DNA from: Deltaproteobacteria bacterium RIFCSPHIGHO2_01_FULL_43_49
Lineage (GTDB): Bacteria; UBA10199; SPLOWO2-01-44-7
Assembly: GCA_001798075.1 (NCBI GenBank)
Contig: MGRG01000005.1
Location: forward strand, 193,148-257,147
DNA length: 64,000 nucleotides
Direction of reading: 5' to 3'
Positions 6,033 through 30,544 of the stretch are shown here, piece by piece. The notes under the pieces are model-generated. The model was not told where the DNA came from. It made no database searches and was given only the letters and a program-made list of their open reading frames with translations. The position numbers were made by a program, and so were the translations under genes. How positions within the stretch are numbered: the first letter of the stretch is position 1; every line of letters starts with the position of its first letter.

Positions 6033-7259
6033 ATGGGAGCACCCATCAAAAAACGCAAAAGTTTTCCAGTCAAGATCGGTAGAGTGACTATGGGAGGAGG
6101 CCAACCTGTTGTCATCCAATCGATGACCAACACCGACACCGCTGATATTGAAAAATCGGTACAGCAGACGATGGAACTCTCTGATGCCGGCTCCGAACTG
6201 GTGCGACTCACTGTCAATGTCGATGCGGCCGCCCAGGCCATTCCTCACATTAAAGAAAAAATTCTGGCGAAGGGTTATACCACTCCCATCATTGGGGATT
6301 TTCATTATAATGGCCATACACTTCTCACTAAATATCCTGAGTGCGCTGAGGCTCTCGATAAATATCGAATCAATCCTGGCAATGTCGGTTTTGGAGAGAC
6401 CCACGACAAAAATTTCAAACAGATGATTGAAGTCGCATTGAAACACAACAAGCCGGTTCGAATTGGTGTCAACTGGGGCTCACTCGATCAAACCATTTTA
6501 AATCGAATGATGGATGAAAATGGGCGTTCGGCCAATCCCAAATCAGCAGAGGAGGTAACCATCGATGCGATGGTGGAGTCAGCCTTATCTTCTGCGGCAA
6601 TGGCCCGTGAATATGGAATGAGGCCGGAAAAAATCGTCATCAGTGTAAAGATGAGTCATGTGCAAGATGTGATCAAGGCTTATACGATACTAGCCTCAAA
6701 GTGTGAGTATGCACTGCACGTTGGTTTAACAGAAGCGGGCATGGGGCTCAAGGGAGCCGTTTCTTCGACGGCGGCTTTGGCCAATTTGCTTCAGCAAGGA
6801 ATTGGTGACACCATTCGAGTTTCTCTGACCCCGGCACCCGGTGGTGCACGTACAGAGGAAGTTTTAATCTGTCAGCATATTTTGCAATCACTTGGGATGC
6901 GCCAATTTCAACCCTCCGTTACAGCGTGCCCTGGTTGTGGTCGGACAACCAACACTCTTTTTCAAGAAATGTCTCAAGATATGGAAAATTTTTTCCGCGA
7001 AAAACTCCCCGAATGGCAGAAAAAAGGCTACATTGGAGTTGAGTCTCTAAAAATCGCCGTGATGGGTTGCATTGTGAATGGCCCCGGAGAATCAAAAGTT
7101 GCTGATATCGGTATTAGTCTTCCCGGCACCGGTGAAAACCCAAAAGCCCCTGTCTTTGTGGATGGCAAAAAAGTCACCACCCTCGAAGGCCCCCAAATGA
7201 TGACTCATTTCAAAAAGTTAGTCGAAGATTACGTTAACCAGAAATTTGGTTCCCACTAG
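6033..7259 (+). CDS. ispG: 4-hydroxy-3-methylbut-2-en-1-yl diphosphate synthase (flavodoxin)
   Basis: VKIGRVTMGGGQPVVIQSMTNTDT. TIM-barrel plus 4Fe-4S domain with Cys residues CPGCGRT ... CIVNGPGE. Confidence 0.95.
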   Translation: MGAPIKKRKSFPVKIGRVTMGGGQPVVIQSMTNTDTADIEKSVQQTMELSDAGSELVRLTVNVDAAAQAIPHIKEKILAKGYTTPIIGDFHYNGHTLLTKYPECAEALDKYRINPGNVGFGETHDKNFKQMIEVALKHNKPVRIGVNWGSLDQTILNRMMDENGRSANPKSAEEVTIDAMVESALSSAAMAREYGMRPEKIVISVKMSHVQDVIKAYTILASKCEYALHVGLTEAGMGLKGAVSSTAALANLLQQGIGDTIRVSLTPAPGGARTEEVLICQHILQSLGMRQFQPSVTACPGCGRTTNTLFQEMSQDMENFFREKLPEWQKKGYIGVESLKIAVMGCIVNGPGESKVADIGISLPGTGENPKAPVFVDGKKVTTLEGPQMMTHFKKLVEDYVNQKFGSH

Positions 7260-7297
7260 CAACTTTTTTTGAAATCTACCGAAGCATTTCATAGAGT

Positions 7298-8341
7298 ATG
7301 AGAGTCATTATCTTTGGTTTAACATCAGATCAAAGTTTCATTTTAGCGCAAGCTGCACATAACCTCTCCACTTTTCCATTGGGTTCTTTGATGGAAAAAG
7401 GAGCAGATGCTGGCTTGGGCTTTATTCTCGGTCCTCTCGCATACGCCGAAATTCCCAGAATGGATGAAGGCTATTTGTTAAATGCAGGAAAAGAGCTTGC
7501 TGCCTTAGTCAGAGGCGAGCCGAGTTTACAAAAAGCCATTTTAAAGAGAGACGAGTTGGTCGCCAGCATTAATGACATAGCTCTTTTGCCAGATTCAGCA
7601 CAACTCGAGCAAGGAATGGTTGAGCATGCCTGGATGAAAAACCCAGAAGGGAGAGCCCTTTATCTTCATGAACATCCAGAAGAGGGAACAGATTTTGATG
7701 TAAAAAAACTCGTGGAATATACAAAACGAGCAGAGAAAAAAGGGGAAAGTAGTGAGCTATTTATGCAGGCCCTTTATTTCATTGGGATCAGGCATCCCGA
7801 TCCAGATAGAAAGCAGTTTGCACAAGTTGAGTTTGCATCTGTCCAGGCAGCGCGCAGACAAGCCCTTTTTGAAATGGGTTCTCTAAAATTAGATCTCAAA
7901 GAACTTTGGACAAGATTAAATGAAGTTGTCGCTAGGAGAGAAGTTGATTTGGCCTTCGACATTATTCGTTTGATATGGGCCAAAAATTGTGGAGAAAATG
8001 TACGTGAAAAACTATCTCATCACGTATCTCCCATGATACGTGGAGCCTATATCATGGTTGTGATGCAATCTGATAATAACAAGACAAGCCTAGAAGAACT
8101 GTGGAAAAAACAAGAACCGCTTATCGATAGAGATCTCAAAAATTCCAGTGGTGACATTCGATGTGATGCCCTTTCCGAATTGACAGCATTTGCAGCGCTT
8201 GGTTTGCGAGCGGCTTGGTTAAAGTTAGGCGCGTTGGCCAAAAACCCTGATGACCCGTTAGTCCAAGAAGAATCAATAGGGGCGTTAGAGTTATTGCGGC
8301 AACGGGCAGCACTTAGAGCTGAAAGAGCCAACGTAGCCTGA
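7298..8341 (+). CDS. hypothetical protein, member A of a paralogous family (shares N-terminal roughly 110 aa with 14297..15016)
   Basis: ORF with consistent codon usage. By-eye alignment to the 14297 ORF: NLSTFPLGSLMEKGADAGLGFILGPLAYAEI versus NLLAVDLSTLVADGNEAGLAFALAPAADVYG. No known domain recognised. Confidence 0.6.
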   Translation: MRVIIFGLTSDQSFILAQAAHNLSTFPLGSLMEKGADAGLGFILGPLAYAEIPRMDEGYLLNAGKELAALVRGEPSLQKAILKRDELVASINDIALLPDSAQLEQGMVEHAWMKNPEGRALYLHEHPEEGTDFDVKKLVEYTKRAEKKGESSELFMQALYFIGIRHPDPDRKQFAQVEFASVQAARRQALFEMGSLKLDLKELWTRLNEVVARREVDLAFDIIRLIWAKNCGENVREKLSHHVSPMIRGAYIMVVMQSDNNKTSLEELWKKQEPLIDRDLKNSSGDIRCDALSELTAFAALGLRAAWLKLGALAKNPDDPLVQEESIGALELLRQRAALRAERANVA

Positions 8342-8342
8342 A

Positions 8343-9104
8343 TTACCTTCCCTTAAACTCTGGTTTTCTTTTTTCGAGGAAGGCTCTCATTCCTTCTTTT
8401 TGATCTTGGGTGTCGAAGAGTTCGAAGCAGAGGCGGCGCTCTTCTTTAAGGCCTTGAGCTAATGGAAGTTCAAAAGATTTTAGAATAGCTTGTTTGGCGT
8501 GTGCAACTGCAATAGATCCTTTTTCAGAAATTTTTAAGGCCAACTTTTTGGCTTCGTTTAGATATTCAGCCGCCGGTGTTACTTTGCCAACAAGGCCTGC
8601 TTCAAAGGCTTCTTTGGCGGAGTAAATATTTCCTGTCAAAATCCACTCCATCGCCTTCGATTTTCCAATGAGGTGGGTCAGTCTTTGTGTCCCTCCGGCC
8701 CCCGGAATAATTCCTACATTGATTTCTGGCTGACCAAATTTGGCTGTTTCGGAGGCCACAATCATGTCGCACATCATGGCCAACTCACAGCCTCCACCAA
8801 GACAAAAACCGGAAACGGCCGCAATGATCGGCTTTTTAACATTAGAAATTCTGTCCCATATGGCCAAAGGGTCTTTGGCCAAAAGCTCTTTTGCAGTATG
8901 TGAAACCATCCACTTGAGGTCAGCCCCTGCTGCAAAGGCCTTGTCACTGCCAGTCAAAACAATGCAGCGAATTTTTTCATCGCGATCCAATTCCTCCAGG
9001 GCTGAGACCAATTCCTTCATCAACTCTGGACTTAAGGCATTCAGGGCCTCAGGTCGGTTGAGTTGGACAACAGCAATGGGCTCTTCACGATGTACAAGAA
9101 TCAT
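8343..9104 (-). CDS. enoyl-CoA hydratase/isomerase (crotonase family)
   Basis: LNRPEALNALS ... LTGSDKAFAAGADLKWM. Crotonase-fold oxyanion-hole motifs. Confidence 0.9.
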   Translation of the reverse strand: MILVHREEPIAVVQLNRPEALNALSPELMKELVSALEELDRDEKIRCIVLTGSDKAFAAGADLKWMVSHTAKELLAKDPLAIWDRISNVKKPIIAAVSGFCLGGGCELAMMCDMIVASETAKFGQPEINVGIIPGAGGTQRLTHLIGKSKAMEWILTGNIYSAKEAFEAGLVGKVTPAAEYLNEAKKLALKISEKGSIAVAHAKQAILKSFELPLAQGLKEERRLCFELFDTQDQKEGMRAFLEKRKPEFKGR

Positions 9105-9162
9105 GTCACCTACTTAACAAAAGCCATTGAGATTATCAATTTGACAATTACTTAATTTTTAG

Positions 9163-9248
9163 ATGATGGGTGGCCCGCAGTGTTTCTGTGGGGTTTAGTT
9201 AGGGGCCCCCACAGAAATACGGAGGGGCAGGACCCGTCATCTAAAAAT
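9163..9248. repeat. copy 1 of an 85-bp imperfect palindromic extragenic repeat family (orientation A)
   Basis: gggtggcccgcagtgtttctgtggggtttagttaggggcccccacagaaatacggaggggcaggacccgtcatc. Reverse complement of the copies at 12974 and 29320. Confidence 0.85.
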
Positions 9249-9251
9249 TAT

Positions 9252-9896
9252 ATGAAACCACGTTTTGTACGCATTGCTCGTGAGTTTATTCATCACCTCC
9301 CTTATTCCGCCGTGGGAGTTGCAGCGAGTTTAGGTATTCTTTTAGGTCTAGAAAAAATGGGTTGGGATAAAAACCCCGTTTTTTCTTTTCATGTCACCCA
9401 TCCCACACATATTTTTTTAAGCGCTATTGTGACCACCGCCATGTTTTGGAAGTATGAGCGCAAATTACTCAAGGCGGTATTCATTGGTTTTGTAGGAGTC
9501 ATTCCCATTTGTTCCATCAGCGATGTTTTCATGCCTTACTTGGGCGGATTACTTTTAAAAACACCCGTTCAGTTTCATCTCTGCGCGATTCAAGAACCTT
9601 GGCTTGTTTATCCCGCCTGTTTTTTGGGAATTTTGGGCGGACTTACCCTTTTGAAGTGGATCGAGAAGTTAACTGAATTTTGTCATCTAGCGCACGTCAT
9701 GGTGAGCTCACTAGCCTCTATATTGTATCTGATCTCCTTCGATATTTCTTTGTGGCATGTTTCTATGTTAGCCATCTTTGGAATTACTCTTTTGTCTGTT
9801 TGGATTCCTTGTTGTTTGAGTGATATCGCTTTTCCCTTAGCACTTGTCGAAGAGGGTCATGCACCTTGTTGCGGTCATCACCCCCATTCCTTCTAA
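9252..9896 (+). CDS. hypothetical integral membrane protein
   Basis: Multiple hydrophobic helices. The ORF-track start at 9180 lies inside the palindromic repeat, so the start was moved to the first ATG downstream (MKPRFVRIAREF). Confidence 0.5.
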   Translation: MKPRFVRIAREFIHHLPYSAVGVAASLGILLGLEKMGWDKNPVFSFHVTHPTHIFLSAIVTTAMFWKYERKLLKAVFIGFVGVIPICSISDVFMPYLGGLLLKTPVQFHLCAIQEPWLVYPACFLGILGGLTLLKWIEKLTEFCHLAHVMVSSLASILYLISFDISLWHVSMLAIFGITLLSVWIPCCLSDIAFPLALVEEGHAPCCGHHPHSF

Positions 9897-10795
9897 CGCT
9901 CCAGTGGGCCTTTCAATAACACTTCGTAATTGTGAGGAATAAGACTAAAAGAAAAGCCGTGCCAGTTGCTTTCATCAAAAAGTGGTTTGCAGGACTCTTC
10001 CCATTCCCTACTATTTTTGTGGACGAAATCTCCTTGCGGATTTCTGCAAAAATGCTGCTGTTCTGAAGCGATACGCGTAGCCACGGTTTCCTCTTTTCTT
10101 AAATATATATAGCCCTTTGACTCAATGGTAGCTTGAAGATTTAGCTGAGTCATTTGGGAAGGAAGAATATTTACAGGGCCTTCGATGAGTGATACCGAAA
10201 TTTTTGTTCGCTGTTTTTCAACGTCCTGCAAAATTTCTATATAGCCCCTTAAAGCACTTTCCGAGATGAATTCCATCTTCGTTTTATAATACAATTTCCC
10301 TTCAACCGCCATGTCTTCAAATTTTATGGAGTAATCTTTAAACCGGATGTTACTTGCCTCTGGTCCTGGAAGGTTTCCGGTTTTTTTCGAATTCCAGTCT
10401 ACTTCTGCAATTCTTTTCAACCCCCCCTCGTTTGTTATGTTCCAAATAGTCGCCGTTCGATCGTAGTAGGAATTTTGGCCTGTTCCATATTGGAGGTGAG
10501 CGAAATCAATCGATACTTTATAAATTGCTCCATCTCTTCCGGCGATTTTTCTCTCGAAAGGATATTGTATGGCTAAGTTGGAGGAGTCTTGAGGATAAAA
10601 ATCAAGAAATTTCAAGACAAAGTCTTGCCGCTTGGTGGGCACTTCAAGAAGGTTTGTTAAAAATTGAGTCAACTCTTGAGGGTTTTTTGTTTTTAGAGAT
10701 GTACTTTCCGATTGTGATTGGGAGGAATTGATAAAAAGGGATAAAAAAAGGAGGGCTAGCCCTCCTCTCCACAACATCGCTATTTTTGAACTCAC
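9893..10795 (-). CDS. hypothetical secreted protein
   Basis: Signal peptide MLWRGGLALLFLSLFINSSQS. No recognisable domain. Confidence 0.5.
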   Translation of the reverse strand: MSSKIAMLWRGGLALLFLSLFINSSQSQSESTSLKTKNPQELTQFLTNLLEVPTKRQDFVLKFLDFYPQDSSNLAIQYPFERKIAGRDGAIYKVSIDFAHLQYGTGQNSYYDRTATIWNITNEGGLKRIAEVDWNSKKTGNLPGPEASNIRFKDYSIKFEDMAVEGKLYYKTKMEFISESALRGYIEILQDVEKQRTKISVSLIEGPVNILPSQMTQLNLQATIESKGYIYLRKEETVATRIASEQQHFCRNPQGDFVHKNSREWEESCKPLFDESNWHGFSFSLIPHNYEVLLKGPLER

Positions 10796-10819
10796 AAGCT
10801 AATTATAACGAGGAAAAGC

Positions 10820-11731
10820 TTGGCAAAGAATGGGTTAAATAATACCTTTTATATTTCAATGAGTTGGGATAGGGATCGAGTGGCGGGTCTTGGGAACACC
10901 CACGACATTATGAGTGAAATAAAGAAACATTTAATTACACTTTCGAGCGATTTTGGGTCGGGAAACATCGGCTGTGGGGCGATGGAGGCGATAATTTTTG
11001 AAATCTGTCCTGAGGCCAAAGTCGTTCATTTGTGCCACACGATTAGAGGTTTTGACATCAAAGAAGGGGCCAGAATGTTGGAAGGTGTAGCGAAGCTGCC
11101 GATTGGTTTTCATGTGGGAGTTGTTGATCCAGGTGTTGGAACAAAACGAAAAGGAATTGCAATTCAAACCAAACGAGGTGATTTTTTGATCGGTCCCGAT
11201 AATGGTTTGTTAAGACCGGCTGCAGAATTTTTGGGTGGGATCATAAAAGCTTGGGAACTGTCTAACGATCAGTTTCATCGCAAACCGGTCTCTCCCATTT
11301 TTCACGGAAGAGATATTTTCGCACCGGTTGCCGCCTATCTTGCAAAAGGAATTTCGCCCGACGAATTAGGACCAAAAATAAATAGTGATGGACTCATTGC
11401 TGCCCCCTACCATGAAGCACTTTGGAATGGTGATCAAATTGAGGCCGAAGTGATCCATATTAATGGAAATGGCTCTGTTTTTTTGAATATCAAAGCAGAA
11501 GAATTTACAAAAAGGGCAAAACAAGGGGATAAAATAGCTTTTCACTTACCGCCAGGTACCAGGTACCACACGGTAAATTTTCAGAGGACTTTTGGGGAGG
11601 TGGCAAAAGGCGAACCAGTCATATTGAAAGACGATTTTGGCAGAATTGAACTCGCTATCAACCAAGACAATTTTGCTTTGACTTTTGATATCAAACGAGG
11701 GCAGAAATTGATTTTGAAAAAGGAGAAATAA
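10820..11731 (+). CDS. S-adenosyl-L-methionine hydroxide adenosyltransferase family protein (DUF62; fluorinase/chlorinase-like fold)
   Basis: SDFGSGNIGCGAMEA ... HVGVVDPGVGTKRKGIAIQTKRGDFLIGPDNGLL ... IHINGNGSVFLNIKAEEF. The true start is probably the internal MSEIKK near 10910. Confidence 0.8.
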   Translation: MAKNGLNNTFYISMSWDRDRVAGLGNTHDIMSEIKKHLITLSSDFGSGNIGCGAMEAIIFEICPEAKVVHLCHTIRGFDIKEGARMLEGVAKLPIGFHVGVVDPGVGTKRKGIAIQTKRGDFLIGPDNGLLRPAAEFLGGIIKAWELSNDQFHRKPVSPIFHGRDIFAPVAAYLAKGISPDELGPKINSDGLIAAPYHEALWNGDQIEAEVIHINGNGSVFLNIKAEEFTKRAKQGDKIAFHLPPGTRYHTVNFQRTFGEVAKGEPVILKDDFGRIELAINQDNFALTFDIKRGQKLILKKEK

Positions 11732-11964
11732 TGAGCAACATCAAATGTCTTCGTTGCGGTGCTGAAGCTACCCCACCCGATTTTGTTCCCTACAGCGGTC
11801 CTTTGAAAGAGGCCATTGTGAAACAAGTTTGCGGCCAATGCTGGGAAGAGTGGAAAAAAATGAGTGTGATGGTAGTCAATGAATATAAACTGACACCCTT
11901 TTTGCCCCAACATCGCGAAATTTTAGAACAACAGATGAAGGAATTTTTAAACCTCCAACTGTGA
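11731..11964 (+). CDS. yggX: Fe(II)-trafficking/oxidative damage protection protein YggX family
   Basis: 77 aa. IKCLRCGAEATPPDFVPYSGPLKEAIVKQVCGQCWEEWKKMSVMVVNEYKL...REILEQQMKEFL matches the YggX pattern (C..E...F.PYPG.LG..I...VS..AW..W...TM.INE.KL). The start overlaps the upstream stop (TAATG). Confidence 0.75.
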   Translation: MSNIKCLRCGAEATPPDFVPYSGPLKEAIVKQVCGQCWEEWKKMSVMVVNEYKLTPFLPQHREILEQQMKEFLNLQL

Positions 11965-12977
11965 GACCCAATCTAAATCTTCTCAAAAATGTTTTGAGTT
12001 TGCCCACGGCTCCTTTTCATGAACAAGCCGTTATCCATTTTATCAAAAGCTTTTGTGCCAAATTAGGTGTGGTCTGCAAGCAAGATCGTTTTGGCAATCT
12101 CAAAGCCATTTACAAAAGGGGGAAACAAAAACCGATTGCCTTTACAGCTCACATGGATCACCCAGGCTTTGAAGTGTTGCAGACTAATCGGTTAGGGGCA
12201 AAAGTTCGTTTGCTAGGAGGTGTTCCAGACAAATATTTTCTTAAAGCGCGGGTTGTTCTTGTTGACCAAGATGGTTTAACTAAAGGTCGTGTTTTAAAAA
12301 TTCTAAATAAAAAGAAAAGAGAGTTTTGGGTTCAAACAAAAAGACCTGTTCGAAAAAAAACCTTTGGCTATCTTGACTTGCCCGCTTTCCAGCTTCGCAA
12401 AGGAATGATCCACACCAAAGCAGCCGATAATCTGATGAGTGTCGCCATTCTTTTGAATCTCCTGGAAAAGCTTGTTCGGAAAAAAGCCAGGGCAAATGTC
12501 GTCTGCCTTTTCACGCGGGCTGAAGAAGTCGGTTTCATTGGGGCCTCAAAGGCAATTCAGAATCGGTTTTTGCCGCGAAATATCCCGATTGTTGTTTTGG
12601 AAACAAGTTCCGCCAAGGCTGGAAAAGTCGAGATTGGCAGTGGGCCCGTGCTTAGAGTAGGCGATCGCTTTTCCAGTTTTTCTTGGGAGATGGACTTGTG
12701 TTTAAGATTAGTAGCGCAAGAATTAAAATCAAAAGAAAAAAGTTTTGAGTATCAAAGGGGGCTTTTAGCCGGTGGGCGCTGCGAAGCAAGTCTTTATGTT
12801 GTCAAAAAATATCTTGTGGGAGGGCTGGCCCTTCCTTTGGGTAACTATCATAATGTCGGTGCCAAAAGTTATGCCACAGAATATGTGAGTCTAAAGGATT
12901 ATCAAAATTTGCTGAAGTGGTTGATCTTTCTGTCGGCCAATTTTCCAAAGACTTTAAAGAGGTTAATAAAAAAGTAG
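11961..12977 (+). CDS. M42 family metallopeptidase (glutamyl aminopeptidase/FrvX-like)
   Basis: AHMDHPGFEV active-site region and overall M42 layout. 4-bp overlap with yggX. Confidence 0.7.
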   Translation: MRPNLNLLKNVLSLPTAPFHEQAVIHFIKSFCAKLGVVCKQDRFGNLKAIYKRGKQKPIAFTAHMDHPGFEVLQTNRLGAKVRLLGGVPDKYFLKARVVLVDQDGLTKGRVLKILNKKKREFWVQTKRPVRKKTFGYLDLPAFQLRKGMIHTKAADNLMSVAILLNLLEKLVRKKARANVVCLFTRAEEVGFIGASKAIQNRFLPRNIPIVVLETSSAKAGKVEIGSGPVLRVGDRFSSFSWEMDLCLRLVAQELKSKEKSFEYQRGLLAGGRCEASLYVVKKYLVGGLALPLGNYHNVGAKSYATEYVSLKDYQNLLKWLIFLSANFPKTLKRLIKK

Positions 12978-13056
12978 CGGGTCCTGTCCCTCCGTGTTTC
13001 TGTGGGGGCCCCTAACTAAACCCCACAGCAAACACTCCGGGCCACCCGCTAGTTTT
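12974..13056. repeat. copy 2 of the 85-bp palindromic repeat family (orientation B)
   Basis: agcgggtcctgtccctccgtgtttctgtgggggcccctaactaaaccccacagcaaacactccgggccacccgct. Sits between convergent genes. Confidence 0.85.
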
Positions 13057-13067
13057 TTACTCATTTA

Positions 13068-14201
13068 TTAAAAAACGTAACCAAGTGATAAGCGATAGCT
13101 GGAGCTGGTTTCCCTGTTGTTTCTGTTTTCTCCTTGTGCCTCGAACCCAACAGAATAAGCCCCCAGAAATTCAAATTGGACTCCGCCACCACCAATGTGT
13201 GCCTTGTAATTCACAAAGGGGTTTCCGATTCGGCCTGCCTCAAAACCTCTTTGGGCATAAGAATAAAAACCATAAATGGATAGAAATTCTGTCGGCACCA
13301 CTTTGAGTTCGGCAAATCCTCCATGAAAATTTCTGGAGGTTGTCCCCACCATTAAATTTTGAAATTCGTAACCCCCACCAATCCGCAGGAATTCCATCGG
13401 TTCAAAAAATAGGGCCGGACGAAGCGTGTGCGTATTGGCGCGGGTGAAGTCTTGAAACCGGTAGTGAAATTCCGGCGTCACCTTCCAAATAGTATGAGCA
13501 ATGCCCACTTCGTAATTTTGTCTCGGAAGAATATCAACTTCCGGGGCAAACCCCAAACTCAAATCAAAACGCGTTTTTTCTTTCAGATAATAATGACCAA
13601 AGAGTCTTGTATCAAAACCATCTCTGCCGAAGCGCTGGATATAGGCACTATAAAGTCCCAAGCCATATGTCTTTTCTCTTTCGATTCGGATTTGTTGAAA
13701 CTCACCTTGAGTCTGCGACGAGTAAGAAGGATTTTCAGTGATATAACCACCTTCAATCACAATTCGTGATTTTCTCTCAAGTTGTGGTTGGACCGCTTCA
13801 CTCTCTTCGTTGCCAGGTTCTATTTTTTCAGCTTTATCAAAAAAATCTCTAGCCTTTTTTTGTTTGCCCATGGCCAGATAGGCCTTGCCTGTTCCCACTA
13901 GTGCCGGAACATTTTTAGAATCGAGCTCCAAGACTTTTTCATAAGTTTTAACCGCCTCTTCATAATTGCCTTGCCAATATTGGACTTGGGCCAGACCTGA
14001 GAGGGCCCCCAAGTTTTCGGGATCATGGTGTAAAACCCCCTCATAGAGGCTTTGTGCCCCCTCGTAGTCTCCTGCCTCCTCTTTTTCCTGGGCTTGGCTC
14101 ATTATCCTTTCCGAATCGCCTTTAGGAGAAGTGAAGCCATTGGAAAAAGGTAGGAGGCAAAAGCCAAAAACCATTATGAAAACAAGGAGTAATACACGCA
14201 T
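13068..14201 (-). CDS. TPR-repeat plus C-terminal outer-membrane beta-barrel protein (YaiO/PgaA/BcsC-like architecture)
   Basis: Signal peptide MRVLLLVFIMVFGFCLL. Three to four TPR units (YEGAQSLYEGVL ... YEEAVKTYEKVLELD ... GKAYLAMG). C-terminal alternating beta-strand region ending SLGYVF. Start set at the ATG at 14201, which is preceded by GGAGGAGG. Confidence 0.6.
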   Translation of the reverse strand: MRVLLLVFIMVFGFCLLPFSNGFTSPKGDSERIMSQAQEKEEAGDYEGAQSLYEGVLHHDPENLGALSGLAQVQYWQGNYEEAVKTYEKVLELDSKNVPALVGTGKAYLAMGKQKKARDFFDKAEKIEPGNEESEAVQPQLERKSRIVIEGGYITENPSYSSQTQGEFQQIRIEREKTYGLGLYSAYIQRFGRDGFDTRLFGHYYLKEKTRFDLSLGFAPEVDILPRQNYEVGIAHTIWKVTPEFHYRFQDFTRANTHTLRPALFFEPMEFLRIGGGYEFQNLMVGTTSRNFHGGFAELKVVPTEFLSIYGFYSYAQRGFEAGRIGNPFVNYKAHIGGGGVQFEFLGAYSVGFEAQGENRNNRETSSSYRLSLGYVF

Positions 14202-14296
14202 TTCATTTCCTCCTCCAGGGTTTAACCATATTTTGTTGCGAAAATCACGCAACTTTTTTCTAATTTGCTCGATAAAACCTAGGGAGCATAAAATCA

Positions 14297-15016
14297 ATGA
14301 ATAGCGGAGGACTAGTAACCATTTTTCAACTAGCTGTTCCACAACAGTTAGCCCTTTTAGAGACGGCAACGAATTTGCTTGCAGTCGATTTGAGTACCCT
14401 TGTTGCGGATGGGAATGAGGCCGGTTTGGCCTTCGCGCTGGCTCCTGCCGCAGATGTTTATGGAGAGGATCATTTACTGAGTAGGGCTAGAGAGATTGCA
14501 GGTTTAGCAAAAACAGATCCTGGCGAGGCAGCTGCAAGCAAACAAAGACTTGTAAGAGAGTTTGTCTCGTTGGTTGAGCAGTCTTCAGCTCCCAACCCCC
14601 CTCCACATCAGCTGATATATCTAAAAAGGGTTTTAGGTTTGATGGAGACGACAACAAGGGTTGTGCGTATGGGTATCGATGTTGCGAACGCCATCGCTTT
14701 AAACAATCAGTTGGAAAATGTTTTTCGGACTTTGCAGGAAAGGGGAATCCCCGTCGACATTTTCATTATCGACAGGGACCGCGAGGTAACGGTAAGAAGT
14801 AAATTAATTCACATTGAGGGAGATCCTTCAGGCACTCAAAGACGGATGATCGTGGAAGCCAAAGTAATTAAGGGGAGCATGGAAGGAGAACGCGATTCCT
14901 ATTCGGTAATTTTTTCCGACAGGACACACCCGTTACCTATGGAGCTTAGTAAAGATGTGGAACTCGGTAATCTTAGCTTTAACATCACCTTATTCATTGA
15001 TGGACTACTACTATAA
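14297..15016 (+). CDS. hypothetical protein, member B of a paralogous family (N-terminal module shared with 7298..8341)
   Basis: See 7298..8341. The C-terminal region differs. Confidence 0.55.
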   Translation: MNSGGLVTIFQLAVPQQLALLETATNLLAVDLSTLVADGNEAGLAFALAPAADVYGEDHLLSRAREIAGLAKTDPGEAAASKQRLVREFVSLVEQSSAPNPPPHQLIYLKRVLGLMETTTRVVRMGIDVANAIALNNQLENVFRTLQERGIPVDIFIIDRDREVTVRSKLIHIEGDPSGTQRRMIVEAKVIKGSMEGERDSYSVIFSDRTHPLPMELSKDVELGNLSFNITLFIDGLLL

Positions 15017-15028
15017 AAAGGAGATTTC

Positions 15029-15496
15029 TTGAGACGATATTTTTGCTGTTTGGTTTTGGTCCTGTTGGGATTTGTCAAAACACTGTCCGCGGATTCAGGT
15101 ATGGATCATGCCTTGACGACAACGGTTGCCAGAAAAACTTTGCAAGAGGTGATGATGGCGATTGCCAAAGATATCGAGGAGCTTCAAGGAGATTTTCCAC
15201 AATTAAAAAAATGGAATGATGCCGAAATTTCTCCCGAAGGAATTTATTACCAATATCATTACACAGCTGGGCGATATCCTTTTGCCGAAGAAGAGTTTGG
15301 AAAGAACGGATGCCATCTTGCCATCGATACAAAAGATCAGCTACAGGCATCAGCCTCTCCTCAAATCCTTGGCGAATTAAAACTGGGGATTTATTTGAAG
15401 TTTAAGGCCGTTGGGAAAGATGCGGAAGAGTTAAAAAGACTTATTCAAGAAATCGTTGCTAAACGTTTTGAAATGATCAGGAACCTAAACTCTTAG
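15029..15496 (+). CDS. hypothetical secreted protein
   Basis: Signal peptide MRRYFCCLVLVLLGFVKTLSA. No domain recognised. Confidence 0.5.
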   Translation: MRRYFCCLVLVLLGFVKTLSADSGMDHALTTTVARKTLQEVMMAIAKDIEELQGDFPQLKKWNDAEISPEGIYYQYHYTAGRYPFAEEEFGKNGCHLAIDTKDQLQASASPQILGELKLGIYLKFKAVGKDAEELKRLIQEIVAKRFEMIRNLNS

Positions 15497-19131: not shown

Positions 19132-19199
19132 TGAAAATGACCTAAGCGCAAGTCAAAATGGGAGCAACTTTTCTCAAAATTTGCCGATAACTATAAGGA

Positions 19200-20426
19200 A
19201 TGGCGCCTATAGCGAATATATTGGGTATTGGTACTGCACAAGCCTCTTTAGCCCAAATGGAGGCCAGTCTTGTCATCTCTCAAGATGAGACAGGGGTTGA
19301 AAATCCACCAGCTAATGCAGACCAATTTGTAATAGCAGATGAGCCCCTTATTTCTCCAAAAATTCATTCTAACTCGTCTCCTGAATCACTTGCGGCTTTC
19401 GGGATGTTTGGTCTTTCACCTCTATCACTAGCGATTTGTGCGGGCGGTTTGTTAATGGCAAAATTAATGCGCCGACCCCTCTCGCAACTCCTTATCACTA
19501 CGCTTGGGACAACTTGGGCAGCAACGACTATGGTTGAAGGAAATTGGCCTCTTGCCATTGAGCTCTATCTTAGCGGGTGTGCAACGTTAAGAATGATCAA
19601 ACATTTCAATATACACCCCTCTACTCAAAAACCAATAGATGCCAGAAGTTTTCGGGACTATTTTGATGTTTCAAAATTACCTCGGCTTCGTGATAAGTAT
19701 GGTCGCGATGAATGTTATACAAAAGCAGTAGACGCACTCGAAAAAATTTTAATGGACAATCCTAAACTGCAGCAGTTTTTTGATTTCGATCCGCGCCACC
19801 AAAGTTTGTTGGATGAAATGGGTTGGGTAAGAATTGCAGACGACTATATAGGAAAAATTTCAACGGCAACAGGTTCAGCAAAAGGCATTTTTGTTCCCAT
19901 GGATGAAACGTTATATACGGGTGGTGTTGTTGAATTTGGTGTCCATGAATTAGCACACGTTCTTCATTTTACTGCTATTAGAAAGAAAGTGTCATTCAAT
20001 GATCTTCAGAGGGTTAAAGAATACTTTGATACTCATGATGTCCATCAACGCATTGCCCCTTTTTTAGATACGGTGAGACAACATTTAGTGAAGAGTGATT
20101 CGGGATCTCCAATTCCACATGAAGTAAGAAATGCAGCAGCAATATTAATCTTCCAAATTGGCAAAGGAGAATTTGGAGGTCACCATGAAAGTGTCCCCAC
20201 ATTTTTACAAACAAAACTCAGTTTTTTTGCAAGAAGCCTAAAATTCAGGCCTTGGATGTTTATAAATCAATTAATCGCCTGGTTCCTCATGCCGATGGCT
20301 TGGATTGGTGGAATTCATCGCGACACTCAGTTTTTGAATCCTCTCTTTGCTTATGACAATCCATTTATTCTTAGGCGCGTTCTTAAATTAGGTCCAATTG
20401 ATTCACTTCTGGGAAGCGAAGGTTAA
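19200..20426 (+). CDS. hypothetical protein with HEXXH zinc-metallopeptidase-like motif
   Basis: GVVEFGVHELAHVLHF. Hydrophobic segments near residues 60-90. Weak N-terminal resemblance to the 7298/14297/29459 family (GIGTAQASLAQ versus GLTSDQSFILAQ). Confidence 0.5.
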   Translation: MAPIANILGIGTAQASLAQMEASLVISQDETGVENPPANADQFVIADEPLISPKIHSNSSPESLAAFGMFGLSPLSLAICAGGLLMAKLMRRPLSQLLITTLGTTWAATTMVEGNWPLAIELYLSGCATLRMIKHFNIHPSTQKPIDARSFRDYFDVSKLPRLRDKYGRDECYTKAVDALEKILMDNPKLQQFFDFDPRHQSLLDEMGWVRIADDYIGKISTATGSAKGIFVPMDETLYTGGVVEFGVHELAHVLHFTAIRKKVSFNDLQRVKEYFDTHDVHQRIAPFLDTVRQHLVKSDSGSPIPHEVRNAAAILIFQIGKGEFGGHHESVPTFLQTKLSFFARSLKFRPWMFINQLIAWFLMPMAWIGGIHRDTQFLNPLFAYDNPFILRRVLKLGPIDSLLGSEG

Positions 20427-29405: not shown

Positions 29406-29458
29406 GAGCCCCAAATTTTTAGGCAACTTTTTTGGGAAACAACCGATGACTACCTTGT

Positions 29459-30544
29459 ATGATTTCTATTGCAAATGTGGCGATTAGCCGGGCCGCTTTT
29501 CAACTGGCTGATCCCGCCTTTCTGGATCTAAGCCTTTCCCAAGTAGAGCGCGTTCTTGCGCCCGTCACCCCTTTTTCTGGGGTGTATGAAGGGAGAGCAG
29601 ATCTGCTGGAAGCTTTAGAAAAGGGGAGGTCCGAAGAAGTAGCACTTTCCAGAGCAGCGCTCTTAAAAAAATTAGTTGGGGATACCCCGGGTGTTTCTAA
29701 ATTATTTGCAGACCCACAAGATCTCTTTAGAAATGTGAGAGAGGTTTTAGGTCTACAGAAAGATTTCAAATCAGCCCTTCTCCCAGACCCAGAACTAATT
29801 ACAAAAGAACAAAAACTGACTGATCACAATAACAGAAAAGAAGTTTATATCGTTAAGGATTTGGCAGACCTAGGAATTTTGGGGCTTTCAACATGGAAAT
29901 ATGTTGTTGTGGAGCTAGCCGATGGGACACAAGAGATTCGGATCGGATCATACAAAGGTTTGCATGTGGAAATGATGTTGGACGATGAAAAAATTGTTGG
30001 GGCAGGGTATATTGAAAATAAAGAGGGTATTATTGAACTGGATGGCTCAAGCACTTTCCTGTCCACTTATCCTGATAGAGTAGAGAATTCTCACCGTCCA
30101 ATAGCAGAAGAAAGCGGTTTGAAGGCAGTGAGGAAGGCCTTTCGAAAAATTTTGGGTAAAGATTTTAATTTGATGGTTCGAGGATTACCAAACGAGCCGG
30201 AATCTCTTAGTATTGAGAGTTCTGAAATCCTTTTTCAAAGAACCAACGGTGCAAAAAAGAGATATCTCCTCATTGTCACTATCGATGGGGAGCCCAAATT
30301 CCGTCTTGTTGATGAAGGGAATGAAGATGGGATAGAAACGATGGATCCTGGCGATGCGGCTGTCGATATAGGAGAGGTTTATCAATCTAGAACAGCAGAT
30401 GGAAAGCCGGTCTATGTTTTAACGGGAACTCAGTCTGGCTTAACAGACTCTTTATTGTTTCTCAAAAAGCTTCTTGGGAATGCTGCCATCGTTGCTAGCT
30501 TGGGCGAGTGGATGTTGCATCCTCAAAACCCCGCTCTTCAGTAA
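29459..30544 (+). CDS. hypothetical protein (N-terminus weakly resembles the 19200 ORF: M..IAN....A..LA.....L..SQ.E)
   Basis: ORF only. No known motif. Confidence 0.45.
   Translation: MISIANVAISRAAFQLADPAFLDLSLSQVERVLAPVTPFSGVYEGRADLLEALEKGRSEEVALSRAALLKKLVGDTPGVSKLFADPQDLFRNVREVLGLQKDFKSALLPDPELITKEQKLTDHNNRKEVYIVKDLADLGILGLSTWKYVVVELADGTQEIRIGSYKGLHVEMMLDDEKIVGAGYIENKEGIIELDGSSTFLSTYPDRVENSHRPIAEESGLKAVRKAFRKILGKDFNLMVRGLPNEPESLSIESSEILFQRTNGAKKRYLLIVTIDGEPKFRLVDEGNEDGIETMDPGDAAVDIGEVYQSRTADGKPVYVLTGTQSGLTDSLLFLKKLLGNAAIVASLGEWMLHPQNPALQ

What the first reader, a model, noticed from the sequence alone, without database searches (positions are those of the whole stretch)
7298..15016. Paralogous hypothetical proteins sharing an N-terminal module with divergent C-termini (possible effector or cargo family)
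ORFs 7298..8341 (347 aa) and 14297..15016 (239 aa) align by eye over their first roughly 110 residues. Examples: VIIFGLTSDQSFILAQAAHNLSTFPLGSLMEKGADAGLGFILGPLAYAEI versus VTIFQLAVPQQLALLETATNLLAVDLSTLVADGNEAGLAFALAPAADVYGED, then GYLLNAGKELAALVRGEP versus DHLLSRAREIAGLAKTDP. They diverge afterwards. ORF 19200..20426 (408 aa, HEXXH motif HELAHVLHF) and ORF 29459..30544 (361 aa) show weaker resemblance in their first roughly 30 residues (GIGTAQASLAQ versus GLTSDQSFILAQ; MAPIANILGI versus MISIANVAIS). None has a signal peptide or recognisable domain. A conserved N-terminal leader on otherwise unrelated bodies is the pattern seen in secretion-system substrates, compartment-targeted cargo and polymorphic toxins.
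Basis: seen in the sequence. Interest (0 to 1): 0.7.

Follow-up and report, generated by a model that had tools for sequence, protein, structure and literature searches.

The report
Two paralogues, four co-regulated orphan genes
Two of the four orphan proteins really share a ~100-residue N-terminal domain on unrelated bodies, while all four genes are linked only by a conserved flagellar-sigma-type (sigma-28-like) promoter just upstream, so they look like members of one lineage-specific regulon whose function is still unknown.

Summary
The window comes from a Rifle-aquifer MAG, "Deltaproteobacteria bacterium RIFCSPLOWO2_01_44_7".

**Protein similarity**
- ORF A (7298..8341) and ORF B (14297..15016) are significantly similar at the N-terminus: BLASTP 36% over 73 aa, E 2e-8, and 0 of 5000 shuffles reach the score.
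- ORFs C (19200) and D (29459) show no significant protein similarity to A, to B or to each other.

**Shared promoter (new)**
- All four genes carry the same upstream DNA motif, GCAACTTTT[T/C]T-N8-(G/A/C)(C/T)CGA(T/A)(A/G)(A/C). It ends 9-21 nt before the ATG.
- The window has 4 matches against 0.06 expected, and no other strong site lies in 83 kb of this contig.
- Across relatives the consensus is GCAACTTTTTT-N8-GCCGATAA. That is the sigma-28 (FliA/WhiG) -10 box at the sigma-28 spacing.
- The motif is conserved upstream of the A-like and B-like genes of other organisms. It is enriched in related groundwater MAGs, where it precedes mostly unannotated, non-flagellar genes.

**The N-domain in relatives**
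- It occurs alone as a 110-aa protein next to ispG.
- It is also fused to a ResIII/DEAD helicase in a protein of at least 1095 aa.
- No Pfam, NCBIfam, PADLOC or PDB match was found.

**Verdict:** this is a real new domain family with swapped C-termini, sitting inside a sigma-28-like regulon. A role in secretion or compartment cargo is untested and has no contextual support. Interest is moderate.

The parts
7259..7285 (+). Promoter-like site of gene A: GCAACTTTTTT (7259-7269), 8-nt spacer, ACCGAAGC (7278-7285). It lies 12 nt before the ATG, and its first base is the last base of the ispG stop codon.
   Evidence: The same arrangement (ispG stop, GCAACTTTTTTT-gagatta-GCCGATAT, 11 nt, ATG) occurs in the orthologous locus L007.
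7298..8341 (+). Gene A, 347 aa. Residues 1 to about 100 (7298-7597) are the shared helical N-domain. Residues about 101-347 are a helical body with no relative found.
14249..14275 (+). Promoter-like site of gene B: GCAACTTTTTT, 8-nt spacer, CTCGATAA (14268-14275). It lies 21 nt before the ATG, with a GGGAG Shine-Dalgarno-like element in between.
   Evidence: The B-like gene in L008/L124 has GCAACTTTTTT-ggggtttt-GCCGAAGA, also 21 nt before its ATG.
14297..15016 (+). Gene B, 239 aa. Residues 1 to about 107 (14297-14617) are the shared N-domain. Residues about 108-239 are a predicted alpha/beta body with no relative found.
19164..19190 (+). Promoter-like site of gene C: GCAACTTTTCT, 8-nt spacer, GCCGATAA (19183-19190). 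It lies 9 nt before the ATG, with no Shine-Dalgarno at a usable distance.
19200..20426 (+). Gene C, 408 aa, co-regulated but not homologous to A or B. It has one TM-like segment (residues 63-90) and an HExxH motif (HELAHVLH). Its homologue in MAG nzgw603 also sits behind the motif.
29423..29449 (+). Promoter-like site of gene D: GCAACTTTTTT, 8-nt spacer, ACCGATGA (29442-29449). It lies 9 nt before the ATG, with no Shine-Dalgarno.
29459..30544 (+). Gene D, 361 aa, co-regulated but not homologous to A, B or C. No domain was found.

Best explanation
**Shown**
- A and B are real, lineage-restricted paralogues. They share an all-helical N-terminal domain of about 100 residues joined to unrelated C-terminal bodies.
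- The same domain occurs alone, and also fused to an SF2 (ResIII/DEAD) helicase, in related uncultivated bacteria.
- C and D are unrelated proteins.
- A, B, C and D are single-gene units scattered among housekeeping genes. Each sits directly behind the same conserved DNA element, GCAACTTTTTT-N8-GCCGATAA. In A, C and D it lies so close to the ATG that the mRNA would be nearly leaderless. B has about 14 nt of leader with a Shine-Dalgarno-like element.

**Inferred**
- The element is a promoter read by a sigma-28-family (FliA/SigD/WhiG-type) alternative sigma factor.
- The four genes therefore belong to one regulon of mostly lineage-specific, non-flagellar proteins that is switched on together. 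Comparable cases are the FliA-driven attack-phase programme of Bdellovibrio and the sigma-28 or WhiG late and developmental programmes of Chlamydia and Streptomyces.

**Guess**
- The shared N-domain is a common docking or targeting domain. It would bring different C-terminal activities to the same partner or place during that phase.
For: **Domain**
- A against B: E 2e-8, z about 12.
- An exhaustive profile search of 1.84 billion representatives finds only two credible further members, P0003 and P0005.
- P0003 is a complete 110-aa ORF directly after ispG, as A is.
- The L124 protein carries the module (42% identity to B residues 5-107, E 4e-13), followed by ResIII/DEAD at residues 268-463.
- Coding signal is present in both halves of A and B.

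**Promoter**
- The window has 4 matches to GCAACTTTTYT-N9-YCGAW against 0.06 expected. All lie 36-48 nt upstream of the four ATGs on the coding strand.
- A position-weight-matrix (PWM) scan of 83 kb of the same contig gives only these four sites, at 30-35 bits, with the next best at 12.7.
- The motif is conserved in front of the A-like and B-like genes of other organisms, and in front of the homologue of C.
- In the genome-collection scan, 65 of 115 sites fall in groundwater 'Deltaproteobacteria', Myxococcales and Bdellovibrio-type MAGs.
  - There, 44 of 65 sites read GCCGATA, against 6 of 50 in other taxa.
  - There, 37 of 65 sites have an ORF of at least 80 aa starting within 35 nt, against 12 of 50 elsewhere.
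- The base after the searched pattern, which the search did not constrain, is A in 51 of 67 sites. This completes GCCGATAA.

**Sigma class**
- The E. coli sigma-28 consensus is TAAAGTTT-n11-GCCGATAA (PMC2859248).
- The WhiG2 consensus is T(A/C)AA-N16-GCCGATAA (PMC12871210).
- The Bdellovibrio attack-phase consensus is TTAAG-N16-CCGATA, assigned to FliA, and covers many uncharacterised non-flagellar genes (PMC3627812).
- This motif reads GCAACTTT-N11-GCCGATAA.

**Regulon content in relatives**
- 13 of 20 motif-proximal proteins have no Pfam match. The rest are TPR, HEAT, PP2C, PilZ, trypsin-like and RtcB.
- No flagellar or chemotaxis genes turned up in about 1 Mb of motif-bearing loci.
Against: - No sigma factor gene, transcription start or expression data could be examined, so the sigma assignment rests on sequence resemblance alone.
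- The -35 half (GCAAC) differs from TAAAG. It carries the 'AAC' hallmark of ECF promoters, and AAC-N16-CGA also fits ECF geometry.
- The rest of this MAG could not be read. It did not appear in the truncated scan, so regulon size and the presence of fliA or flagella in this organism are unknown.
- The taxon grouping behind the enrichment figures (65 of 115, 44/65 against 6/50, 37/65 against 12/50) was assigned by hand from the record titles after seeing the hits. It includes some MAGs titled Nitrospira, Pseudomonadota or simply 'bacterium'.
- The docking-domain role is conjecture. AlphaFold single-sequence models were poor (pLDDT 43), and no partner is known.
- The 82-aa 'stand-alone' P0005 is probably an assembly artefact. 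L008 is 100% identical to L124 for 1088 nt and then diverges into an A-rich tail.
Confidence: 0.55

Rival explanations
1. The motif is the promoter of an ECF (group 4) sigma factor rather than a sigma-28-family factor. A-D would then form a small stress or envelope regulon.
For: - The -35 half GCAAC carries the AAC core typical of ECF promoters (established knowledge).
- The geometry AAC-N16-CGA fits the ECF spacing.
- The Bdellovibrio paper notes that RpoE-like sigmas also act in the attack phase.
Against: - The -10 consensus is the full sigma-28 octamer GCCGATAA, including a position the search did not constrain. It is not the CGT-type ECF -10.
- The spacing equals that of E. coli sigma-28.
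- Site density is high: 4 sites in 22 kb here, and at least 10 strict sites in one related MAG from a truncated scan. That is large for a typical ECF regulon.
- No sigma/anti-sigma gene pair lies next to any site examined.
Confidence: 0.2
2. A and B (and perhaps C and D) are substrates of a secretion system such as a flagellar-type or injectisome T3SS. The N-terminal module would act as a secretion or chaperone-binding domain carrying variable effector bodies.
For: - None of A-D has a Sec signal peptide, and A, B and D have no hydrophobic segment reaching the TM threshold.
- The domain is N-terminal and the C-termini are swapped.
- Sigma-28 regulons elsewhere include exported late flagellar substrates (established knowledge).
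- Proteins behind the motif in relatives include enzymes with long N-terminal extensions and no signal peptide: trypsin-like, HExxH proteins, PP2C, RtcB.
- The first 20 residues of regulon proteins are mildly depleted in charged residues.
Against: - No secretion-system gene lies in 83 kb of the contig.
- There is no common N-terminal motif across 35 regulon proteins, and some of them carry ordinary signal peptides.
- The module is a helical region of about 100 residues rather than a short unstructured signal.
- A helicase of at least 1095 aa is an unusual cargo.
- The charge-depletion comparison lacks a proper control.
Confidence: 0.15
3. A and B are polymorphic toxins, or cargo of a protein compartment (encapsulin or BMC), with the N-module as trafficking domain.
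For: Only the architecture supports this: a conserved N-terminus with variable C-terminus.
Against: - No toxin, immunity, Rhs/PAAR/LXG, shell or encapsulin family was detected in A-D, their neighbours or the window.
- A is followed by a convergent enoyl-CoA hydratase gene.
- B is followed by a signal-peptide protein with its own Shine-Dalgarno, not by an immunity-like partner.
- Known compartment targeting peptides are short (established knowledge).
Confidence: 0.03
4. The N-domain is itself regulatory. It would be a FlgM- or RsiG-like anti-sigma or second-messenger-binding module that ties the proteins to the sigma factor that transcribes them.
For: - Small helical proteins expressed from sigma-28 promoters are typical of FlgM (established knowledge).
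- The domain can stand alone at 110 aa.
- PilZ (c-di-GMP-binding) proteins sit behind the motif in two related MAGs.
Against: - There is no FlgM or other Pfam match, even at E = 1.
- The RsiG-type ExxxSxxRxxxQxxxD motif is not visible in the alignment (by eye).
- Fusion to a helicase is not expected for an anti-sigma factor.
Confidence: 0.05

Closest known systems
FliA (sigma-28) attack-phase regulon of Bdellovibrio bacteriovorus (Karunker et al. 2013, PMC3627812)
   Same: - A sigma-28-type box (CCGATA) with a -35 element 15-16 nt upstream.
- It drives many dispersed, mostly uncharacterised, non-flagellar genes, including proteases.
- Some motif hits lie in MAGs named Bdellovibrio or Pseudobdellovibrionaceae.
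   Different: - The -35 reads GCAAC(TTTTTT), not TTAAG.
- No flagellar genes were seen behind the motif.
- No transcription start or expression data exist for this organism, and its lifestyle is unknown.
- The window encodes an ordinary free-living metabolism.
Canonical sigma-28 / SigD / WhiG promoters (E. coli TAAAGTTT-n11-GCCGATAA; Streptomyces WhiG2 T(A/C)AA-N16-GCCGATAA)
   Same: - The -10 octamer is identical in the consensus.
- The spacing to the -35 block is identical to E. coli.
- The TTT following the -35 core is shared.
- WhiG and chlamydial sigma-28 show that the family can control non-flagellar developmental genes.
   Different: The first two and the fifth positions of the -35 block differ (GCAAC against TAAAG). 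The T-run is longer. The promoter sits unusually close to the start codon, giving near-leaderless transcripts.
Modular N-terminal-domain families such as LXG/WXG100 (type VII secretion), or effector families with a shared N-terminal chaperone-binding or translocation domain
   Same: A helical N-terminal domain of about 100 residues that occurs both alone and fused to unrelated C-terminal bodies.
   Different: There is no sequence match to any such family. No WxG or LxG motif is present, no cognate secretion genes lie nearby, and one C-terminal body is a large SF2 helicase rather than a toxin.

Membership tests
Sigma-28 (FliA/SigD/WhiG)-type promoter | -10 element GCCGATAA with an invariant central CGA | tested here: met
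   - Window sites read ACCGAAGC, CTCGATAA, GCCGATAA and ACCGATGA, and CGA is invariant.
- The consensus of 67 sites is GCCGATAA, with the last A unconstrained by the search.
- Reference consensus.
Sigma-28 (FliA/SigD/WhiG)-type promoter | -35 element TAAA / T(A/C)AA(GTTT) | tested here: inconclusive
   GCAACTTT matches TAAAGTTT at 5 of 8 positions. GCAA matches T(A/C)AA at 3 of 4. The first base is G, not T.
Sigma-28 (FliA/SigD/WhiG)-type promoter | Spacing of 11 nt between the 8-mer blocks (TAAA-N15-GCCGATAA) | tested here: met
   GCAACTTT-N11-GCCGATAA holds in all four window sites and in L007, L008 and L124.
Sigma-28 (FliA/SigD/WhiG)-type promoter | A sigma-28-family sigma factor encoded in the genome, and transcription dependent on it | not testable with these tools
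   Only 83 kb of the MAG could be read, and it holds no sigma gene.
Sigma-28 (FliA/SigD/WhiG)-type promoter | Controls flagellar or chemotaxis late genes (classical regulon) | tested here: not met
None appear among 20 motif-proximal proteins scanned in Pfam. This feature is not obligatory for the family, as WhiG and chlamydial sigma-28 show.
ECF sigma promoter | -35 with an AAC core and -10 with a CGT core, 16-17 nt apart | tested here: inconclusive
   The AAC core is present and the spacing is AAC-N16-CGA. However, the -10 is CGA inside a full GCCGATAA octamer, not CGT(C/A).
Polymorphic toxin / effector-immunity modules | A known trafficking domain, a C-terminal toxin domain and an adjacent immunity gene | tested here: not met
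   A and B have no Pfam, NCBIfam or PADLOC family. Their downstream neighbours are a convergent enoyl-CoA hydratase and a signal-peptide protein.
Any curated protein family (Pfam-A, NCBIfam, PADLOC, PDB sequences) | A significant profile match of the N-domain or of the full proteins | tested here: not met
   There are zero families at E <= 0.01. At E <= 1 there is one chance-level hit, RHG29_45_N at 0.029, in 1 of 4 members.

The most novel reading that the evidence does not exclude
The GCAACTTTTTT-N8-GCCGATAA element marks a large, non-flagellar sigma-28-family regulon in an uncultivated groundwater 'deltaproteobacterial' lineage. The regulon would consist of near-leaderless, lineage-specific genes and would mark a Bdellovibrio-like phase switch, such as an attack or dispersal form. 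The A/B N-domain would be a previously unknown delivery or targeting domain that loads different enzymes (helicase, unknown bodies) into that phase-specific machinery.
Probability: 0.15. Interest if true: 0.7.

Novelty: new variant of a known kind. Interest (0 to 1): 0.4.

Why it matters
- It turns four anonymous orphan genes into a testable unit: a co-regulated set with a defined promoter that can be searched genome-wide.
- If the sigma-28 assignment holds, these uncultivated groundwater lineages would join Bdellovibrio, Chlamydia and Streptomyces as cases where the 'flagellar' sigma family was recruited to run a non-flagellar programme. The motif would then serve as a handle for listing that programme's genes directly from MAGs.
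- The N-domain is a new domain of unknown function with clear domain shuffling. Its forms are stand-alone, plus a helical body, plus an alpha/beta body, and plus an SF2 helicase. That makes it a reasonable target for structure and partner studies.
- On present evidence this is a modest, lineage-restricted finding, not a new kind of system.

Tried and rejected
- **Homologue searches.** Word-indexed searches with full-length A and B returned only the proteins themselves. The profile version returned only P0003 and P0005.
- **Structure.** AlphaFold2 single-sequence models of A and B were poor (pLDDT 43), so no fold search was run because it would be meaningless.
- **P0004.** This 1028-aa hit with 4 stretches in the exhaustive search is a repetitive beta-rich protein. 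I treat it as spurious because repeats add up the score.
- **Terminator reading of GCAAC+T-run.** Only B has a complementary upstream arm (GTTGCG-7-CGCAAC, 14235-14253). Terminator-like hits are at chance level (17 against 18.4 expected). The fixed-distance GCCGATAA box and the position before ORF starts argue for a promoter.
- **Sigma-70-like hit before A.** The match at 7269-7297 is at chance level (19 against 21.9 expected) and would start transcription inside the ORF.
- **Shared N-terminal signal.** A search across 35 motif-proximal proteins found none beyond A/B and one paralogue pair.
- **Module in other frames or ORFs.** tblastn of the window and a profile search of 8775 ORFs from all loci found nothing.
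- **Sigma or flagellar genes in fetched loci.** Only an rpoD next to dnaG was found.
- Two reference papers were not held.
- **Taxonomy.** GTDB placement of the MAG could not be established.

Full report
**Source and context**

The exact proteins of the window occur on NCBI GCA_001798285.1 contig MGRS01000022.1. The same proteins are found on Rifle-aquifer metagenome scaffolds of 258-321 kb. One source names the organism "Deltaproteobacteria bacterium RIFCSPLOWO2_01_44_7". G+C is flat at about 0.40-0.47 across the window.

The genes around the finding are ordinary chromosomal genes. They include metE, an alcohol dehydrogenase, ispG, enoyl-CoA hydratase, a SAM hydrolase-like gene, an M42 peptidase, a TPR protein, cytidine deaminase, NamZ, QueF, thioredoxin-reductase-like, MTHFR, GreA, TrkH, a copper ATPase, squalene/phytoene synthases, ThiI, ribonucleotide reductase and ThyX. 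From about 41 kb onward there is a polysaccharide export and biosynthesis cluster.

Together with 10-kb extensions on both sides (L010, L123), 83 kb of the contig could be read. It holds no secretion-system, flagellar, compartment-shell or sigma-factor gene.

**Step 1: the observation**

The four ORFs exist as described.

- **A and B.** A (7298..8341, 347 aa) and B (14297..15016, 239 aa) are significantly similar at the N-terminus.
  - BLASTP gives 36% identity over 73 residues, 40 bits, E = 2e-8 with composition adjustment.
  - The Smith-Waterman score is 98 against 29-34 ± 5 for shuffles, and none of 2000 or 5000 shuffles reaches it.
- **C and D.** C (19200..20426) and D (29459..30544) are not significantly similar to A, to B or to each other.
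  - BLASTP E-values are 0.5 or worse.
  - A profile of the module does not find them.
  - Their first 40 residues are not among the best-scoring pairs in a set of 35 N-termini.
- **Coding status.** Codon-usage scoring with a model trained on Pfam-supported genes of the window is positive only in the annotated frame. This holds for the N- and C-terminal halves of A and B and for C and D, at the level of the ispG control. All four are therefore real genes.

**Step 2a: what links the four genes**

While reading the DNA upstream of A and B, I saw the same 11-mer, GCAACTTTTTT. A search of the window gave three exact copies and one copy with a single mismatch in front of A, B, D and C respectively. 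Aligned on the motif, the four upstream regions read as follows.

| Gene | -35 block | Spacer | -10 block | nt to ATG |
|---|---|---|---|---|
| A | GCAACTTTTTT | tgaaatct | ACCGAAGC | 12 |
| B | GCAACTTTTTT | ctaatttg | CTCGATAA | 21 |
| C | GCAACTTTTCT | caaaattt | GCCGATAA | 9 |
| D | GCAACTTTTTT | gggaaaca | ACCGATGA | 9 |

- The composite pattern has 4 matches in the window against 0.06 expected from shuffles.
- A position-weight-matrix (PWM) scan of the window and both 10-kb extensions finds only these four sites, at 30-35 bits. The next best site scores 12.7.
- All four sites are on the + strand, within 22 kb.

**Step 2b: conservation elsewhere**

An exhaustive profile search with the A/B N-terminus against 1.84 billion representative proteins returned A, B and three others.

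- **P0003** is 110 aa and A-like.
- **P0005** is 82 aa and B-like.
- **A repetitive 1028-aa beta-rich protein** was also returned. I regard it as spurious.

P0003 lies on a 1-kb contig (L007). The layout there is the 3' end of ispG, its stop codon, GCAACTTTTTTT-gagatta-GCCGATAT, 11 nt, the ATG, a complete 110-aa ORF, and then an RHH gene with its own Shine-Dalgarno. This is the same synteny and the same promoter as A, but the protein consists of the module alone.

P0005 lies on a 1.2-kb Rifle contig (L008) behind GCAACTTTTTT-ggggtttt-GCCGAAGA and 21 nt. A metagenome scan then found L124, part of a 474-kb contig. L124 is 100% identical to L008 for 1088 nt, after which L008 diverges into an A-rich tail. 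In L124 the ORF continues for at least 1095 codons to the end of the locus.

- The module is 42% identical to B residues 5-107, E = 4e-13.
- It is followed by a ResIII/DEAD-box helicase core at residues 268-463.

The 82-aa P0005 is therefore probably an assembly artefact or a truncated variant, and the real architecture is module plus SF2 helicase.

The module is thus known in four contexts: alone, with a helical body (A), with an alpha/beta body (B), and with a helicase. It spans about 100 residues. Even the poor single-sequence models predict four to five helices for it. It has no match in Pfam, NCBIfam, PADLOC or PDB sequences.

**Step 2c: the motif in other genomes**

I assigned the lineage grouping below by hand from the record titles, after seeing the hits. 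A few MAGs in the related group are titled Nitrospira, Pseudomonadota or simply 'bacterium'.

- 65 of 115 sites lie in groundwater 'Deltaproteobacteria bacterium' MAGs, or in Myxococcales, Bradymonadaceae, Polyangia or Bdellovibrio-type MAGs. Contributors include nzgw604 with 10 loci, E14_metabat.bin.232 with 9, several NC_groundwater, RIFCSP and CG MAGs.
- In that group 44 of 65 sites read GCCGATA out of the eight variants allowed. In other taxa the figure is 6 of 50.
- In that group 37 of 65 sites have an ORF of at least 80 aa starting within 35 nt. In other taxa the figure is 12 of 50.
- A column count over 67 sites shows that the next base, which the search did not constrain, is A in 51 of 67. 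This completes GCCGATAA. There is also an A-rich tract 5-10 nt upstream of the -35 block.
- C has a homologue (25% identity over 255 aa, E = 2e-16, HExxH conserved) in MAG nzgw603, again directly behind the motif.
- Of 20 motif-proximal proteins from these MAGs scanned against Pfam, 13 have no family. The others are TPR, HEAT, PP2C phosphatase, PilZ, a trypsin-like protease with a long N-terminal extension, and RtcB. Some others carry ordinary signal peptides.
- tblastn with FliA, flagellin, FlgG, MotA, CheW and an MCP signalling domain found only an rpoD next to dnaG in about 1 Mb of these loci.

**Step 3: mechanism**

The element has the anatomy of a bipartite promoter. It has two conserved blocks at a fixed distance, faces the gene and lies immediately upstream of the start codon. 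It is conserved in orthologous positions across species while the spacer and flanks vary.

- **Sigma class.** The -10 block equals the sigma-28 consensus, and the spacing equals that of E. coli.
  - E. coli: TAAAGTTT-n11-GCCGATAA (PMC2859248).
  - This motif: GCAACTTT-N11-GCCGATAA.
  - Streptomyces WhiG2: T(A/C)AA-N16-GCCGATAA (PMC12871210).
  - Bdellovibrio attack-phase promoters: TTAAG-N16-CCGATA, ascribed to FliA, covering 'many uncharacterized proteins' (PMC3627812).
  
  I therefore infer a sigma-28-family sigma factor. This step is an inference.
- **Leader length.** If transcription starts 6-8 nt after the -10 block, as at sigma-28 promoters (established knowledge), the leaders are about 5 nt for A and 2-3 nt for C and D. 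That is effectively leaderless, and no Shine-Dalgarno lies at a usable distance. B has about 14 nt of leader containing GGGAG. The neighbouring ORF 15029 has a normal AAGGAG Shine-Dalgarno, so the organism does use them.
- **Regulon.** The four genes are thus most likely members of one regulon of lineage-specific proteins that is switched on together. Its content in relatives is not flagellar. This resembles the repurposed sigma-28 systems of Bdellovibrio, Chlamydia and Streptomyces.
- **Role of the N-domain.** What it does is not shown. It is always N-terminal, can stand alone, and is joined to three unrelated bodies. My best guess is a common docking or targeting domain.

**Rivals**

- **ECF sigma factor.** This is the main alternative for the promoter. 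The GCAAC half contains the ECF 'AAC' core, and AAC-N16-CGA fits ECF geometry. The complete GCCGATAA octamer and the high site density argue against it.
It remains possible. Arguments for it:
  - none of A-D has a signal peptide;
  - enzymes with N-terminal extensions sit in the regulon;
  - there is mild charge depletion in the first 20 residues.
  
  Arguments against it:
  - there is no apparatus in 83 kb;
  - regulon proteins share no N-terminal motif;
  - one 'cargo' is a helicase of at least 1095 aa.
- **Polymorphic toxin or compartment cargo.** No toxin, immunity or shell genes are present.
- **FlgM/RsiG-like regulatory role for the domain.** This is conceivable but has no sequence support.
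- **Terminator reading of GCAAC+T-run.** Rejected, because only B has a complementary arm and such hits are at chance level.

**Step 4: comparison with known systems**

The promoter meets the -10 and spacing criteria of sigma-28-type promoters. It only partly meets the -35 criterion. The presence of the sigma factor could not be tested. The classical flagellar regulon content was looked for and not found.

The proteins belong to no curated family. The architecture resembles families with a shared helical N-domain and swapped C-termini, such as LXG/WXG100 or effector families, but no defining feature of those families is met.

**Step 5: novelty and value**

- The A/B module is a new, very narrowly distributed domain of unknown function with clear domain shuffling.
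- The promoter is a variant of a known class.
- A dispersed, non-flagellar sigma-28-like regulon of orphan genes in uncultivated groundwater lineages is a useful, testable lead, but it rests on sequence inference.
- I rate the finding as a new variant of a known kind, with an interest score of 0.4.

Noticed in passing
window 7259-29449 (+ strand): The four promoter-like sites all lie on the + strand within 22 kb. None is found in the other ~60 kb of the contig that could be read. Pairs of sites within one 8-kb block or in adjacent blocks also occur in related MAGs (L051, L088, L121, L028/L086, L084/L118). Regulon genes seem loosely clustered.
   Followed up: partly
window 19200-20426; L040 136-1430: Protein C has one TM-like segment (residues 63-90) and an HExxH motif (VHELAHVLH). 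The motif is conserved as VHECSHALH in its homologue from MAG nzgw603. C may be a membrane-anchored metallopeptidase-like protein, but no Pfam family matches.
   Followed up: partly
window 14235-14259: A hairpin, GTTGCG-aaaatca-CGCAAC, followed by TTTTTT overlaps the -35 block of B's promoter. It looks like an intrinsic terminator on the + strand, although no + strand gene ends there. It is absent at the other three sites.
   Followed up: partly
window 15029-15496: A small ORF of 155 aa lies 12 nt after B. It has a clear signal peptide and a strong Shine-Dalgarno (AAGGAG), matches no family and has no promoter motif of its own. It may be co-transcribed with B.
   Followed up: no
L008 1089-1227 versus L124 3186 onward: The short Rifle contig L008 is identical to L124 for 1088 nt. 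It then switches to an A-rich, lysine-coding tail, which truncates the module protein to 82 aa. This is probably a chimeric contig end, so database protein P0005 is likely not a real full-length product.
   Followed up: yes
L053, L061, L064, L106 (MAG named Nannocystis exedens): Four contigs carry the identical site, including the spacer (GCAACTTTTTTCTTCGGTGGCCGATG), mostly at contig ends. This looks like a repeated element rather than independent promoters.
   Followed up: no
L088 2223 and 4023 (- strand; MAG named Nitrospira sp. Bin_29_2_1): Two tandem paralogues of 586 and 574 aa carry signal peptides and aspartate/cysteine-rich repeats. Each sits behind its own copy of the motif. This shows that the regulon also includes Sec-exported proteins.
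   Followed up: no
L037 5043 and L091 2409: Small PilZ-domain proteins, 35% identical to each other, sit behind the motif in two different MAGs. This hints at a c-di-GMP link to the regulon.
   Followed up: no
window 8341-8343: Gene A and the convergent enoyl-CoA hydratase gene end one base apart, leaving no room for a terminator between them.
   Followed up: no
window ~41000-64000 and L010: A large polysaccharide cluster (Wzz/Wza-type export, glycosyltransferases) also holds several radical-SAM/SPASM and methyltransferase genes. It is unrelated to the finding.
   Followed up: no
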